64,000 nt of DNA from an uncultured Actinomycetota bacterium (GCA_963781135.1 CAWADY010000013.1:75-64074), one strand, 5' to 3'; counted from the stretch's first letter, positions 7,415 to 10,740 are shown. Made by a program: numbers and translations. The notes: generated from the letters alone by a model not told the origin.

Positions 7415-7915
7415 ATGGATGCCTCCCCCGACCGCGTTGCGCGGATCCAGGCCGAGTGGCGACGCGAGCGTCCGGAGCTGGACCCGTCGCCGCAGGGAGT
7501 GATCGGCCGACTGCACCGCGTGGCCGCGCTGCTGACCGAGGAACTGGTCGCGGTGTACGGCCGCTACGGCCTGAACGAGGGCGACTTCGACGTGCTCGCG
7601 GCCCTCCGCCGCTCGGGTGCGCCCTATGCGCGCGCCGCCGGCGACCTCGCCGACCACACCATGATCACGACCGGCGGGCTGACCAAGCGGGTGGACCGGC
7701 TCGTCGCGAAGGGTCTGGTCGAGCGCCGCCCGAGCTCAGCCGACGCACGCCAGCGCATCATCGCGCTGACACCGGCCGGCCTCGAGTTGATCGATGCCGC
7801 GTACACCGCGCACATCGAGAACGAGCACCGCCTGATCGCCGAGATCGGCCGCGCCGACGCCGCACGGCTCGAACTGCTGCTCGAGCGGTGGCTGCGCGTG
7901 CTGGGCGACGAGTGA
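7415..7915 (+). CDS. pecS: MarR family regulator, PecS/UrtR-like
   Basis: N-terminal AEW, GDFDVLAALRR and TGGLTKRVDRL winged helix; divergent from the EamA gene. Confidence 0.75.
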   Translation: MDASPDRVARIQAEWRRERPELDPSPQGVIGRLHRVAALLTEELVAVYGRYGLNEGDFDVLAALRRSGAPYARAAGDLADHTMITTGGLTKRVDRLVAKGLVERRPSSADARQRIIALTPAGLELIDAAYTAHIENEHRLIAEIGRADAARLELLLERWLRVLGDE

Positions 7916-7936
7916 GGCGCTGCCGCGCGACGCACT

Positions 7937-8001
7937 GAGACAGGGGAAATCGGCCGAGACAGGGGGCAGGACCTCCCGCCTCGACGAGACGCCCTGCGTC
8001 G
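7937..8001. repeat. Degenerate REP-like element between convergent genes
   Basis: GAGACAGGGG twice (7937, 7956) followed by degenerate complements CCCGCCTCG and CCCTGCGTCG. Confidence 0.45.
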
Positions 8002-8011
8002 ACGCGGCGGC

Positions 8012-8509
8012 CTACGCCGCGAGGGCCAGGTAGGGCTCCCAGCACGGGTCTGTGCGGTCGGTGCCCCGCACCGTCCATTGCACGCCCCGGGGCGGCCGCG
8101 GAATCATCCGAAGCTCCCACGACATCTCCTGCGGCGTGCGATCGCCCTTCACGTTGTTGCAGCGCAGGCAGCAGGCGACGAGGTTCTCCCACGAGTCCGC
8201 ACCACCGCGCGAGCGCGGCAGGATGTGGTCGATCGTCGAGGCCGCCTTGCCGCAGTATCCGCAACGGTGGGCATCCCGCCGCAGCACCCCGCGTCGGGTC
8301 ACCGGAATGTGCCGGCCTCCCGGAACGCGCACGTACCGTGTCAGCAGAATGACCGCGGGGCGGTCGTACGACCCCCGCGCCGCCCAGACAGGTTCGCCGT
8401 CGACGTGTTCCACCACGACGGCCTTCTCGTTCATCACGAGCACGATGGCCCGCTTGAACGACACGACGGCGAGCGGCTCATAGCCCGCGTTGAGCACCAG
8501 AGTGCGCAT
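8012..8509 (-). CDS. HNH endonuclease (McrA-like, Zn-binding)
   Basis: TLVLNAGYEPL, RRDAHRCGYCG, TIDHILPRSRGG and WENLVACCLRCNNVKG motifs. Confidence 0.93.
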   Translation of the reverse strand: MRTLVLNAGYEPLAVVSFKRAIVLVMNEKAVVVEHVDGEPVWAARGSYDRPAVILLTRYVRVPGGRHIPVTRRGVLRRDAHRCGYCGKAASTIDHILPRSRGGADSWENLVACCLRCNNVKGDRTPQEMSWELRMIPRPPRGVQWTVRGTDRTDPCWEPYLALAA

Positions 8510-8583
8510 TCCTCATCCTCTCGAACGGCCGGGACGGCTTCCCGGTGATTCGACTACGACGATTCGAGGCGCGCAGGGGCATG

Positions 8584-8612
8584 AAAAAAGGCGCTGTCTA
8601 CAGACAGCGCCT
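8584..8612 (-). terminator. Intrinsic terminator upstream of the HNH gene
   Basis: Minus strand AGGCGCTGTC-TGTA-GACAGCGCCT followed by a T run. Confidence 0.85.
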
Positions 8613-8708
8613 CGGCGCCACGGCAATGCCGCGGCTGTCGTTCGTGCAATGCCGAAGGACGTGGCGTCCAAGCGCATCCATGGTTCGGATGCGTGGTGTG
8701 CGGTCCAT
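8598..8708 (-). CDS. Putative 36-aa leader peptide (uORF)
   Basis: RBS GGAGG 7 nt before ATG; MDRTPRIRTMDALGRHVLRHCTNDSRGIAVAPRRCL; the stop TAG spans the terminator loop and the first base of its 3' arm; -10 TAGCCT at 8743-8748. Confidence 0.5.
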   Translation of the reverse strand: MDRTPRIRTMDALGRHVLRHCTNDSRGIAVAPRRCL

Positions 8709-8802
8709 CGGCTTCCCTCCGCTACTTTCAGCGTCGGGATTCAGGCTAACGCACGCGCGGACGAGCAGGGTCGCAGAGGAGGGTGAACGGCACGTGGCGT
8801 GT

Positions 8803-8834
8803 CGAAGGACGGATGCCGCAGCATCCGTCCTTCG
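8803..8834. terminator. Hairpin terminator after the M23 gene
   Basis: Perfect 14-bp stem CGAAGGACGGATGC-CGCA-GCATCCGTCCTTCG. Confidence 0.7.
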
Positions 8835-8852
8835 GAGGTGATGAGGTCAGAC

Positions 8853-9773
8853 TCAGCCGGCGTTGGACTGGAGCCACGCCCACGGGTCGACGACGCCACC
8901 GTTGATGTGGATCTCGAAGTGCACGTGGCAAGCCGTAGAGCTGCCCGTCGAGCCGACGAAGCCGATGAGCTGACCGGCCGAGACGTATTGACCTGCCGAG
9001 ACCTGACGGCTGCCGTAGGTCATGTGACCGTAGAGGCTGTTGACCGACTGGCCGCCGAGCACGTGATCGATCGAGACGGCGACGCCGTAGCCGCCGTAGC
9101 TCTCCTGCGACACGCTGACGACACCGGCCGCCGTGGCGTAGAGCGGCTCGCCGCACGAGGAGAGCAGGTCGACGCCCTGGTGGTAGCCGGAGTCCCAGAG
9201 GCCGCGGCCGAGGGTGAAGTTGATGATGGGCCAGCGCACCTCGCCGCTGCCGGGCGAGACCATGCTGATGTTGAGCGGGACGGAGGATGAGCTGCTCGAG
9301 GCGACGCGCGCTCGGGCCGCGGCGGCTTCGGCGGCGGCTTGAGCTGCTGCGGCCGCGGCTTCTTCGTCCTTCTTCTTCTGGATCTCTTCGGGGGTCGTGG
9401 CGGAGTAGCTGCCGCGGCTGAGCTCTGAAGCTGATGAGTCGGAAGCGACGACGAGTGACTGCGCATCGTCTGCGGCGACCTGCTGCAGGGTGAGGGCATC
9501 GGCTGCCGGACGCCACGCGCCGTAGGCCGGGAGCGCGACGGTCGCGACGAGCCCGCCGACCATGGTCAAGATGACCAGACTGCGCAGCGGGCGGTTCTTG
9601 CGGATGGACGGGCGGGGAGCGGATGCGGCGGGCTCGCTCTTCACCTTCTTGGGGCGGGGGGATGCGGCTCGGCCGAGCGGCCGCACCGGTGAGATTCGAC
9701 CGCGGGCACGGCGCGTGACACTCGTCTCGTCGCTCTGGGGCTCATTCGCGGGCGAATTTATATCTTCAGCCAA
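8853..9773 (-). CDS. Membrane-anchored M23 family peptidoglycan endopeptidase
   Basis: One TM segment, Ala/Ser linker, HQGVD, YGHM and HVHFE Zn motifs. Confidence 0.92.
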   Translation of the reverse strand: MAEDINSPANEPQSDETSVTRRARGRISPVRPLGRAASPRPKKVKSEPAASAPRPSIRKNRPLRSLVILTMVGGLVATVALPAYGAWRPAADALTLQQVAADDAQSLVVASDSSASELSRGSYSATTPEEIQKKKDEEAAAAAAQAAAEAAAARARVASSSSSSVPLNISMVSPGSGEVRWPIINFTLGRGLWDSGYHQGVDLLSSCGEPLYATAAGVVSVSQESYGGYGVAVSIDHVLGGQSVNSLYGHMTYGSRQVSAGQYVSAGQLIGFVGSTGSSTACHVHFEIHINGGVVDPWAWLQSNAG

Positions 9774-10038: not shown

Positions 10039-10740
10039 TCAGCGTCGGTCGTCGACCAGGAAAATGTGCGACGCGACCTCGACGGGCAGTTCGAGCCCCT
10101 CGTCGTTGCCGTCCATCTGCACGAGGACATAGCCCTCGCTGTAGCGGTAGTCACCTGAAGCGCCCGGCATCACGCCGGCGCCCTTGAGCTGCTGGAGCAG
10201 TTCGGGGTCGACCTGCACGGGCTCGGCGAGACGACGCACGGTACCGGTGATCGGGCCGCCCGCTTCGTTCAGCCGCCGGACGAGACCCACGACGCCCTGC
10301 TCGAAGCCCTTCGCCGGCATGTCGCCGAGCTGGGCGAGGCCCGGGATCGGGTTGCCGTAGGGAGACTCGGTGGGGTGGCCGAGGAGTTCGACGAGTCGGC
10401 GCTCGACCTGCTCGCTCATCACGTGCTCCCACCGGCACGCCTCTTCGTGGACGTAGGCCCAGTCGAGGCCGATGACATCCGAGAGCAGGCGCTCGGCGAG
10501 GCGGTGCTTGCGCATGACGTCGACGGCCTTCTGGCGGCCGCTGTCGGTGAGTTCGAGGGTGCGGTCGTCCGAGACCACGACGAGTCCGTCGCGCTCCATG
10601 CGCCCCACGGTCTGCGAGACCGTGGGCCCGGAGTGACCGAGCCGCTCGGAGATGCGGGCGCGCAGAGGCACGATCGCCTCTTCCTCGAGCTCGAGGATCG
10701 TGCGCAGATACATCTCTGTCGTATCGATCAGGTCGGTCAT
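10039..10740 (-). CDS. ideR: DtxR/IdeR family metal-dependent repressor
   Basis: MTDLIDTTEMYLRTILELEEE, HSGPTVSQTVGRMERDGL and VHEEACRWEHVMS. Confidence 0.93.
   Translation of the reverse strand: MTDLIDTTEMYLRTILELEEEAIVPLRARISERLGHSGPTVSQTVGRMERDGLVVVSDDRTLELTDSGRQKAVDVMRKHRLAERLLSDVIGLDWAYVHEEACRWEHVMSEQVERRLVELLGHPTESPYGNPIPGLAQLGDMPAKGFEQGVVGLVRRLNEAGGPITGTVRRLAEPVQVDPELLQQLKGAGVMPGASGDYRYSEGYVLVQMDGNDEGLELPVEVASHIFLVDDRR

What the first reader, a model, noticed from the sequence alone, without database searches (positions are those of the whole stretch)
8510..8750. Leader ORF plus terminator gating an HNH nuclease (candidate attenuator)
On the minus strand the order is: -10 TAGCCT, RBS GGAGG, a 36-codon ORF, a 10-bp hairpin with T run whose 5' arm is formed by the last codons (stop in the loop), then 75 nt to the HNH start. 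A ribosome at the end of the ORF would cover the 5' arm, as in translation-coupled attenuators. An extra hairpin (CGCATCC-N7-GGATGCG) lies inside the ORF. I know of no described attenuator for this conserved HNH family. The signal sensed is unknown; translation stress or antibiotics is a guess.
Basis: partly seen in the sequence, partly recalled or inferred. Interest (0 to 1): 0.7.

Follow-up and report, generated by a model that had tools for sequence, protein, structure and literature searches.

The report
Translated leader gating a conserved HNH nuclease
A short translated reading frame that ends inside a transcription terminator sits directly upstream of a conserved small HNH nuclease gene in Microbacterium and related genera, and most likely acts as an undescribed translation-sensitive switch on that gene.

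Summary
On the minus strand lie a -10 box (8748-8743), SD GGAGGG, a 36-codon ORF (8708-8598), an 11-bp terminator with T6 (8613-8584) holding the stop codon in its loop, then 74 nt to the HNH start (8509).

The unit is single-copy. A covariance model finds it in 105 of 301 Microbacteriaceae genomes (44 of 101 genera), and all 99 loci examined have the HNH ortholog just downstream.

- **Translation:** the ATG and SD are kept; indels in the first 20 codons are multiples of three; codons 12-20 show excess synonymous change.
- **RNA structure:** four helices covary.
- **Stop placement:** the ORF never stops more than 15 nt before the terminator; loop stops are in frame 44 versus 7 and 6.
- **Promoter:** TANNNT precedes the sORF in 99/99 loci but occurs in the terminator-HNH spacer in only 7/99.
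- **RNA:** soil metatranscriptome contigs both end in the T-run and span into HNH.

Best reading (about 0.5): a pyrBI-like translation-coupled attenuator. The signal is unknown.

The HNH protein has a PLMP-like domain plus an IscB-type HNH domain (IshB-like). A conserved hairpin abuts its SD, so control by protein binding is a live rival. Rfam has no match. I rate it a new variant of a known kind.

The parts
8743..8748 (-). -10 hexamer TAGCCT (TANNNT type, G at -14) of the leader promoter. The predicted start site is about 8737-8735.
   Evidence: One search gives the sequence. A TANNNT lies 37-46 nt upstream of the sORF ATG in 99/99 loci.
8715..8720 (-). Shine-Dalgarno GGAGGG of the sORF, 6 nt before the ATG.
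   Evidence: a purine-rich GGAG/GGGAG is kept 6-9 nt upstream of the start in all loci.
8598..8708 (-). Leader sORF of 36 codons plus stop. The N-terminal ~20 aa are conserved and the C-terminal half is free to vary.
   Evidence: One search lists the ORF. The start is ATG in 96/99 loci and GTG in 2. Codon-position entropy within the genus is 0.29/0.46/0.82 for codons 2-20. The synonymous fraction for codons 12-20 is 0.52 against 0.23 and 0.33 in the other frames. Indels in the N-terminal part are 9, 15, 18 and 18 nt.
8651..8712 (-). Helix P1: GCCGAUGGAC (8712-8703, holding the sORF AUG) pairs with GUCCUUCGGC (8660-8651, codons 17-20) and encloses hairpin H1.
   Evidence: 10 pairs, 5 with compensatory changes, 74% of cells paired across 32 family-level sequences.
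8673..8693 (-). Hairpin H1, CGCAUCC-GAACCAU-GGAUGCG, with a conserved ACCA in its loop.
   Evidence: 7 pairs, 5 with changes on both sides, 83% paired. ATTC/GAAT double changes occur in L017, L025 and L030.
8618..8634 (-). Hairpin H2, CCGCGGC-AUU-GCCGUGG.
   Evidence: 7 pairs, 6 with changes on both sides.
8584..8613 (-). Intrinsic terminator: stem GAGGCGCUGUC/GACAGCGCCUU, loop UGUA and U6. The sORF stop UAG (8600-8598) lies in the loop and 3'-arm start.
   Evidence: One search found it. One search gives 99.4% paired, with the top three pairs invariant. One search finds stop triplets in the loop in the sORF frame in 44 of 81 distinct hairpins, against 7 and 6 in the other frames. Metatranscriptome contigs end at 8583 (twice) and 8585.
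8521..8553 (-). 5'-UTR hairpin of HNH: outer stem UCGAA/UUCGA, inner stem CCGGG/CCCGG and a near-invariant loop AAGCCGU (8540-8534). It ends at the SD.
   Evidence: the stem covaries (CCGGG, CCGAG, CCUGG, CCUGC, CCCGC and others) and the loop is kept across 89 distinct sequences at -33 of the HNH ATG. The hairpin is also present in 4 other families.
8516..8522 (-). Shine-Dalgarno GAGAGGA of HNH.
   Evidence: UCGAGAGG is nearly invariant.
8012..8509 (-). HNH nuclease gene of 165 aa: an N-terminal beta-beta-alpha-beta-beta domain (PLMP-like) plus an IscB/Cas9-type HNH domain.
   Evidence: Pfam gives HNH_5/HNH. The PDB profile search puts IscB/Cas9d HNH on top at 1.7e-15. The AF2 model has pLDDT 92.9. 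Foldseek also matches IsrB 8dmb_P, which has no HNH domain, over 69 columns at prob 0.98.
8804..8833 (-). Context: a 15-bp hairpin after the upstream M23 peptidase gene (9773-8853), without a U-tract. It is probably that gene's terminator.
   Evidence: picked up as a spurious miRNA-like hairpin; one search gives Peptidase_M23.

Best explanation
The region is a cis-acting leader of the HNH gene. A sigma-A-type promoter starts a transcript whose first ~150 nt carry an SD, a translated 36-codon ORF and a strong intrinsic terminator. The HNH gene has no recognisable promoter of its own, so it is made only when RNA polymerase reads through that terminator. The sORF always runs up to, into or through the terminator hairpin. 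A ribosome following the polymerase closely would therefore hold the 5' arm and stop the hairpin from forming, giving read-through and HNH on. If sORF translation starts late or lags, the hairpin forms, and the result is a ~150-nt terminated RNA with HNH off. Helix P1 buries the sORF AUG once about 60 nt have been made. That leaves a short co-transcriptional window for initiation and makes the decision kinetic. Shown here: the anatomy, conservation, coding signature, RNA helices, in-frame stop placement and lack of a spacer promoter. Inferred: that termination is actually modulated, its polarity, and the signal (translation capacity, polymerase pausing, or a nascent-peptide effect of the conserved residues ~7-20).
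For: The element is single-copy and lies immediately upstream of the HNH ortholog in all 99 loci examined, while the upstream neighbour varies. Translation is supported in four ways: ATG 96/99 with an SD; 3n indels only in the first 20 codons; triplet periodicity; and a synonymous excess in codons 12-20 of 0.52 against 0.23 and 0.33. C-terminal codons show no peptide constraint and shift frame, yet the ORF never ends more than 15 nt before the stem (0/99, against 9 and 12 of 99 in the other frames). Loop stops are in frame 44:7:6. The terminator is canonical and 99% paired. TANNNT is upstream of the sORF in 99/99 loci and in the terminator-HNH spacer in 7/99, at no fixed place. Metatranscriptome contigs end in the U-tract (8583 twice, 8585) and others span sORF, terminator and HNH. 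Experimental precedent from E. coli: a stop codon 5 bp before a terminator lowers termination from ~90% to under 10%, and this depends on translation; terminators within the first 100 nt of an ORF work unless pausing lets the ribosome catch up, as in pyrBI (PMC4824070).
Against: There is no direct transcript mapping in a cultured strain. The RNA evidence is low-depth metatranscriptome contigs that may contain DNA, and some extend upstream of the proposed promoter. No conserved antiterminator or pause element was found. The leader has no run of regulatory codons. Open frames are common in 65-70% GC DNA, so 'ORF reaches the terminator' alone is weak (about 10% of control frames stop early). The terminator stem and the UTR hairpin loop are conserved in sequence beyond what a ribosome-only mechanism needs, which hints at a trans factor. 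A non-sigma-A promoter in the spacer cannot be excluded.
Confidence: 0.5

Rival explanations
1. The leader is a protein-controlled regulatory RNA. The conserved hairpins (the terminator with its family-invariant stem sequence, and the AAGCCGU-loop hairpin abutting the HNH SD) are bound by a trans factor, most plausibly the PLMP-HNH protein itself. That factor sets termination and/or HNH translation (autoregulation). sORF translation is secondary.
For: The N-terminal domain has the PLMP topology and matches IsrB, which lacks an HNH domain. In IsrB the PLMP domain contacts the terminal omega-RNA hairpins, including the one that holds the SD just upstream of the protein's own ORF (PMC9581776). 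Here a hairpin with a near-invariant 7-nt loop sits at -33 of the HNH ATG in 89 distinct sequences and in other families. The terminator stem base AGGCGyyG...CrrCGCCU is kept across families although it is read in different frames.
Against: A profile search with the N-terminal domain finds no PLMP-containing PDB chain, so the homology rests on one Foldseek hit at E 0.04. There is no binding data. This reading does not explain the coding signature or the in-frame stop placement. Orthologs in other orders lack these hairpins.
Confidence: 0.2
2. The sORF unit is an independent gene for a small protein and/or a ~150-nt sRNA, with its own promoter and terminator. HNH is transcribed separately from an unrecognised promoter, and the linkage reflects a functional partnership (for example a peptide partner or inhibitor of the nuclease) rather than attenuation.
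For: The unit has its own promoter, SD and strong terminator. Residues ~12-20 are under amino-acid-level selection. Contigs ending in the U-tract and higher summed depth over the leader than over HNH in X32 (25-33 against 15.6) fit an abundant short RNA.
Against: No conserved -10 lies in the spacer (7/99). The stop codon overlaps the 3' hairpin, so each translation event would melt the structure that should protect a stand-alone mRNA or sRNA. The C-terminal half is unconstrained and frame-shifted between lineages. Several RNA contigs run from the sORF across the terminator into HNH. Pfam and NCBIfam do not know the peptide.
Confidence: 0.15
3. The leader is a nascent-peptide-dependent, drug- or metabolite-sensing element like the erm, cat or tnaC leaders. 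The ribosome stalls on the conserved I-x-T-x-D-A-x-G-x-x-V-L-R-H motif and remodels the RNA.
For: There is a conserved peptide core with synonymous substitutions. P1 links the codons of V-L-R-H to the start region.
Against: A ribosome stalled at codon ~20 would free, not block, H2 and the terminator. That predicts the opposite polarity and no obvious way to induce HNH. No resistance or transport gene lies downstream. Nothing here tests stalling.
Confidence: 0.1

Closest known systems
E. coli pyrBI / pyrE transcription-translation coupling attenuators
   Same: A leader ORF is translated up to or through an intrinsic terminator, no antiterminator hairpin is needed, and a ribosome close behind the polymerase blocks hairpin folding. 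The spread of stop positions seen here (just before, inside or beyond the hairpin) is tolerated in that mechanism (PMC4824070; PMC5021804 abstract; details of pyrBI and pyrE from my own knowledge).
   Different: No U-rich or NTP-sensitive pause region is evident. The regulated gene is a nuclease, not a nucleotide-synthesis gene. The peptide core is conserved. A helix (P1) hides the start codon.
Classical amino-acid leader-peptide attenuators (trp, his, ilv, leu; actinobacterial examples in PMC1262725 and PMC10272879)
   Same: Both have a short translated leader ORF, a terminator before the structural gene, and a decision made by the ribosome.
   Different: There are no runs of regulatory codons and no conserved 1:2/2:3/3:4 alternative pairing. 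The stop lies in the terminator itself.
HEARO / omega-RNA of IscB and IsrB (OMEGA systems)
   Same: A structured RNA is encoded directly upstream, on the same strand, of a small nuclease with a PLMP-type N-terminal domain. A terminal hairpin lies next to the protein's SD (PMC9581776).
   Different: There is no Rfam HEARO match. The element is single-copy, syntenic and chromosomal with its own promoter, with no transposon ends or variable guide. It carries a translated ORF and a terminator. The protein lacks RuvC.
IshB (PLMP + HNH, ~180 aa; Altae-Tran 2021 as summarised in PMC10734217 and PMC11610941)
   Same: The protein has the same size class and domain order: a PLMP-like domain followed by an IscB-type HNH domain, with no RuvC.
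   Different: Here the gene is a near-universal, mostly single-copy chromosomal gene of the class (165 of 201 genomes), not an insertion-sequence passenger. PLMP homology is supported only at fold level.
Attenuator-derived small RNAs such as rnTrpL (PMC6614838)
   Same: The terminated leader would be a stable ~150-nt RNA ending in a hairpin and could have a second role in trans.
   Different: No target is known and none was sought here.

Membership tests
Ribosome-mediated (leader-ORF) transcription attenuator | Short translated ORF with SD and start codon in the 5' leader of the regulated gene | tested here: met
   ATG 96/99 plus GTG 2 with an SD, 3n indels, codon periodicity and a synonymous excess of 0.52 against 0.23 and 0.33. 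This is comparative evidence only; there is no Ribo-seq.
Ribosome-mediated (leader-ORF) transcription attenuator | Intrinsic terminator between the leader ORF and the structural gene | tested here: met
   An 11-bp GC-rich stem plus U6, 99.4% paired across the family, and contig ends at 8583 and 8585.
Ribosome-mediated (leader-ORF) transcription attenuator | Structural gene depends on the leader promoter (no promoter of its own) | tested here: inconclusive
   TANNNT occurs in the spacer in 7/99 loci against 99/99 upstream of the sORF, and contigs span the terminator. ECF-type promoters and DNA contamination are not excluded.
Ribosome-mediated (leader-ORF) transcription attenuator | Ribosome position decides terminator folding | tested here: inconclusive
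   The geometry fits. The stop is never more than 15 nt before the stem and loop stops are in frame 44:7:6. There is no functional test.
Classical trp/his-type attenuator | Mutually exclusive antiterminator/terminator hairpins and tandem regulatory codons | tested here: not met
   RNAalifold and manual inspection find only P1, H1, H2 and T. The GACAGC antiterminator-like repeat in the window is not conserved. There are no codon runs.
HEARO / omega-RNA | Match to the Rfam HEARO covariance model | tested here: not met
   cmscan at E up to 10 over 7900-9000 gives only chance hits.
HEARO / omega-RNA | Association with IS200/605-type mobile elements; multiple copies with variable 5' guides | tested here: not met
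   There is one copy per genome, always at the HNH locus, with a promoter directly upstream.
IshB-type protein | IscB/Cas9-type HNH domain without RuvC, about 165-185 aa | tested here: met
   (TbaIscB 1.7e-15; Cas9d), and the 165-aa model.
IshB-type protein | N-terminal PLMP domain | tested here: inconclusive
   The topology is beta-beta-alpha-beta-beta in residues 1-56, as described for the IsrB PLMP domain. Foldseek matches IsrB 8dmb_P at prob 0.98 and E 0.04. The profile search of the N-terminal domain against PDB finds no PLMP protein.
Nascent-peptide arrest leaders (erm/cat/tnaC/secM type) | Sequence-specific ribosome stalling on the leader peptide | not testable with these tools
   Only conservation of residues ~7-20 is seen.

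The most novel reading that the evidence does not exclude
The whole ~230-nt leader is the cognate RNA of a domesticated, chromosomal IshB-like (PLMP-HNH) protein. It comprises P1/H1 with its ACCA loop, H2, the sequence-conserved terminator hairpin and the AAGCCGU hairpin abutting the SD. The PLMP domain would bind the tandem 3' hairpins, as it does in IsrB/IscB omega-RNA complexes. The RNA would then be both the autoregulatory operator and possibly a functional partner of the nuclease: a non-mobile relative of the OMEGA ribonucleoproteins that also encodes a translated sORF.
Probability: 0.15. Interest if true: 0.85.

Novelty: new variant of a known kind. Interest (0 to 1): 0.6.

Why it matters
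The regulated gene is a nearly universal but uncharacterised small nuclease of the class (165 of 201 genomes). Its HNH domain is closest to those of IscB and Cas9, and its N-terminal domain looks like the PLMP domain of the OMEGA nucleases. A dedicated, deeply conserved leader implies that its expression must be tightly gated, which gives an experimental handle on what the nuclease does and when. The leader is also a compact natural case in which a stop codon is held inside a terminator hairpin and the start codon is held in a helix. That makes it a good model for transcription-translation coupling in high-GC Actinobacteria, where such coupling is debated. If the protein binds this RNA, it would link a housekeeping actinobacterial gene to the ancestry of RNA-guided nucleases.

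Tried and rejected
- **Rfam:** a scan at E up to 10 gave nothing.
- **Antiterminator:** GACAGC at 8639-8634 can pair with the terminator 5' arm in this genome, but it is not conserved, so I rejected it.
- **H1 as a coding by-product:** rejected. Double compensatory changes alter the amino acid (D to N).
- **Non-coding sRNA only:** rejected on the 3n indels and the synonymous excess.
- **Structure prediction:** the first AlphaFold run, on a shallow Microbacterium-only alignment, was unusable (pLDDT 52.8). The run with 53 diverse homologs worked.
- **PLMP homology by sequence:** HMM searches of the whole protein and of the N-terminal domain against PDB found no PLMP match.
- **Distribution beyond the family:** models R1 and R2 gave no credible hit outside the family in 300 genomes of the order. 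Manual inspection still showed a related hairpin layout in about 10 of 14 sister families and none in other orders.
- **RNA data:** no isolate RNA-seq or TSS data for Microbacterium were found, and only soil DNA runs hold the 2-kb region. Extra runs of unknown type (X31, X38, X43, X45) added little and may be DNA.
- **Other look-ups:** earlier scan notes held nothing for this stretch. Cluster look-ups gave only generic 'HNH/McrA' names. The Altae-Tran 2021 paper itself is not held.

Full report
**1. Observation**

Reading the minus strand gives the following order.
- The M23 peptidase gene runs 9773-8853 (Pfam Peptidase_M23) and is followed by a 15-bp hairpin (8833-8804) without a U-tract.
- A conserved GTGCGTTAGCCTG block holds the -10 hexamer TAGCCT (8748-8743).
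- The SD GGAGGG lies at 8720-8715.
- A 36-codon ORF runs 8708-8598.
- A canonical intrinsic terminator has stem 8613-8588, loop TGTA and T6 at 8589-8584.
- After 74 nt comes the start of a 165-aa HNH gene, 8509-8012 (Pfam HNH_5/HNH).

The sORF stop TAG (8600-8598) sits in the terminator loop. The extra hairpin CGCATCC-N7-GGATGCG lies at 8693-8673. The region folds far better than shuffles (z = -4.76).

**2. Conservation and linkage**

The organism is a Microbacterium, judging from the record titles.
- The 221-nt leader is found by BLAST in 32 of 36 same-genus genomes at 69-90% identity.
- In 30 Microbacterium loci it always lies between the M23 and HNH genes.
- A covariance model built from 28 copies finds one full-length copy in 105 of 301 Microbacteriaceae genomes, covering 44 of 101 genera.
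- In all 99 loci I fetched, the HNH ortholog starts 76-172 nt downstream on the same strand. The upstream neighbour is not conserved outside Microbacterium.
- A second model built from family-level diversity finds nothing credible outside the family in the order.
- Even so, HNH orthologs of about 10 of 14 sister families have a strong upstream hairpin with the same stem base (AGGCGyCGyC...GrCGrCGCCU). Four of them also carry the same CCCGGAAGCCGUCCGGG hairpin at -33 of the HNH start.
- Orthologs in other orders of the class lack this leader.

**3. Is the sORF translated?**

Four lines of comparative evidence say yes.
- The start is ATG in 96 and GTG in 2 of 99 loci, with GGAG/GGGAG 6-9 nt upstream. 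The A and U of the AUG are mostly unpaired in helix P1 yet invariant.
- The four independent indels inside the first ~20 codons are 9, 15, 18 and 18 nt. Indels further downstream are not multiples of three.
- Within the genus, column entropy at codon positions 1/2/3 is 0.29/0.46/0.82 for codons 2-20 and flat (0.82/0.77/0.70) for codons 21-36.
- Over 85 distinct leaders, 52% of single-base codon differences in codons 12-20 are synonymous in the sORF frame, against 23% and 33% in the other two frames.

The family consensus peptide is M-x5-I-[RHQ]-T-[MTV]-D-A-[RL]-G-[LR]-[FLY]-V-[LI]-R-H-[SC]-S-Q-x-C. Pfam and NCBIfam do not know it.

**4. RNA structure**

Four helices are supported by covariation on a 32-sequence family alignment. 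Overall 82.8% of cells are paired, against 34-52% with slid partners; 21 of 34 pairs have changes on both sides; and 0 of 500 shuffles reach the observed values.
- P1: GCCGAUGGAC pairs with GUCCUUCGGC. It encloses H1 and contains the sORF AUG.
- H1: its loop keeps an ACCA.
- H2.
- The terminator: 99.4% paired, with its top three pairs invariant.

Some compensatory changes alter the peptide, for example GAT to AAT paired with ATC to ATT. RNA and peptide constraints therefore overlap.

A fifth element lies in the HNH 5' UTR. It has a 5-6-bp covarying stem, a near-invariant loop AAGCCGU, and a flanking UCGAA/UUCGA stem that ends at the SD UCGAGAGG. It is present in 89 distinct sequences.

**5. 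Relation between the ORF end and the terminator**

The C-terminal half of the peptide is unconstrained, and two different reading frames enter the terminator in different lineages (...RRCL* versus ...KALSx*).
- The ORF never stops more than 15 nt before the stem in any of 99 loci. The control frames do so in 9 and 12 loci.
- Stops fall in the loop or 3'-arm start in 48 loci, within 15 nt before the stem in 25 (mostly overlapping its first base), and beyond the terminator in 25 (20 stop past it, and 5 run on to the HNH start without a stop).
- Among 81 distinct hairpins, a stop triplet in the loop is in the sORF frame in 44 and in the other frames in 7 and 6.

Selection thus acts on where translation ends relative to the hairpin, not on the C-terminal residues. 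In every arrangement a translating or terminating ribosome would occupy the 5' arm.

**6. Promoters and transcripts**

A TANNNT hexamer lies 37-46 nt upstream of the sORF ATG in 99/99 loci. Only 7/99 loci have one anywhere between the terminator and the HNH ATG, and at no consistent position.

No isolate RNA-seq was available, but soil metatranscriptomes hold the region.
- Contigs from four runs in three studies run from the sORF across the terminator into HNH or its 5' UTR: X26 8367-8671, X27 8450-8701, X32 8405-8635 and X33 8526-8712. X29 (8415-8593) and a further X32 contig (8383-8612) run up from HNH and end within the terminator.
- Three contigs end in the U-tract: X28 at 8585 and X32 twice at 8583.
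- Summed depth in X32 is higher over the leader (25-33) than over HNH (15.6).

These data are thin, may include DNA, and some contigs extend upstream of the proposed promoter. They fit partial termination but do not prove it.

**7. The regulated protein**

The HNH domain is closest to those of IscB and type II-D Cas9.
- With 53 diverse homologs, AlphaFold gives a confident model (pLDDT 92.9): an N-terminal beta-beta-alpha-beta-beta domain (residues 1-56) followed by the HNH domain.
- Foldseek against the PDB returns IscB/Cas9 HNH domains. It also returns IsrB (8dmb_P), which has no HNH domain, over 69 columns at probability 0.98 and E 0.04.
- The IsrB paper describes its PLMP domain as a four-stranded antiparallel sheet plus a helix. 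That domain contacts the terminal omega-RNA hairpins, including the one carrying the SD immediately upstream of the protein's own ORF (PMC9581776).
- PLMP plus HNH without RuvC is the architecture named IshB (PMC10734217, PMC11610941).
- Sequence profiles of the N-terminal domain do not detect PLMP proteins in the PDB, so this homology is only tentative.

The gene is present, mostly single-copy, in 165 of 201 genomes of the class, which makes it a core chromosomal gene rather than a transposon passenger.

**8. Mechanism**

The best-supported model is a translation-coupled attenuator of the pyrBI/pyrE kind. Transcription starts at about 8736, and the sORF is translated co-transcriptionally. If the leading ribosome is close behind the polymerase when the terminator is made, the 5' arm is held in the ribosome and the polymerase reads on into HNH. 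Otherwise the hairpin forms and a ~150-nt RNA is released.

E. coli experiments support the geometry (PMC4824070).
- Moving a stop codon from 28 to 5 bp before a terminator lowered termination from ~90% to under 10%.
- That effect was lost when translation was uncoupled.
- Full termination needed a stop-terminator distance of more than 27 nt.
- Terminators within the first 100 nt of an ORF work unless pausing lets the ribosome catch up.

Here the terminator begins 96 nt after the AUG, and P1 occludes the AUG once ~60 nt are made. The outcome should therefore depend steeply on how fast initiation and early elongation are relative to the polymerase. What physiological variable this reads is unknown. 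The conserved peptide core suggests an added nascent-chain or small-protein role.

**9. Rivals**

- A trans factor, most attractively the PLMP-HNH protein itself, binds the sequence-conserved terminator stem and the AAGCCGU hairpin and sets termination or translation.
- The unit is an independent small-protein or sRNA gene.
- It is an erm/tnaC-type stalling leader.

The first rival is compatible with the attenuator and explains the sequence conservation of the hairpins, but it has no direct support. The second is disfavoured by the missing spacer promoter, the stop-in-hairpin design and the spanning contigs. For the third, the polarity does not fit.

**10. Comparison with known systems and novelty**

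No Rfam family matches, and full-text searches found no description of a leader for this HNH family. The element works like the pyrBI/pyrE coupling attenuators. It differs from them in its start-codon helix, its conserved peptide core, its lack of an evident NTP-sensitive pause and its target gene. It fails the tests for trp-type attenuators (no antiterminator, no regulatory codons) and for HEARO/omega-RNA (no model match, not mobile, single copy). I classify it as a new variant of a known kind, with interest 0.6. A 0.15-probability reading would be much more notable: that this RNA is the partner of a domesticated IshB-like nuclease.

Noticed in passing
window 8012-8509 (-): The 'HNH endonuclease/McrA' here has an N-terminal beta-beta-alpha-beta-beta domain that resembles the PLMP domain of IsrB/IscB, followed by an IscB-type HNH domain (IshB-like architecture). 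Orthologs occur in 165 of 201 genomes of the class, mostly single-copy.
   Followed up: partly
window 8521-8553 (-): A hairpin with a covarying stem and near-invariant loop AAGCCGU lies at -33 of the HNH start and abuts the SD UCGAGAGG. It is also present in four sister families. It is a candidate protein-binding site.
   Followed up: partly
window 8680-8686 (-), loop of hairpin H1: The H1 loop keeps an ACCA (GAACCAU or ACACCAC) across genera. It looks like a tRNA 3' end, but its meaning is unknown.
   Followed up: no
L225, L230, L237, L223, L224, L217 (orthologous HNH loci of other orders): Orthologs outside the order lack the sORF-terminator leader. They often have a different lineage-specific hairpin immediately upstream of the SD (for example GGACCCGGyGCGAGCCACGCGyCGGGCC before GAGGAGG).
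   Followed up: no
L198 (sister family), about -144 of the HNH start: The leader ORF there is His-rich (MGVTPPHHHPVVHRHQ...) and reads through the hairpin in frame into the HNH start. His/Arg-rich stretches also occur in several Microbacteriaceae leaders (for example HSHRHVHH in L120).
   Followed up: no
window 8804-8833 (-): A perfect 15-bp hairpin (GAAGGACGGAUGCUG/CGGCAUCCGUCCUUC) without a U-tract lies 20 nt after the M23 peptidase stop. It is probably an I-shaped terminator. Two RNA or unknown-type contigs run from it into the leader, so some read-through from the M23 gene is possible.
   Followed up: partly
window 10039-10740 (-): A DtxR/IdeR-family iron-dependent repressor gene lies upstream of the M23 gene. 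A MarR-family gene (7415-7915, +) converges on the HNH 3' end.
   Followed up: no
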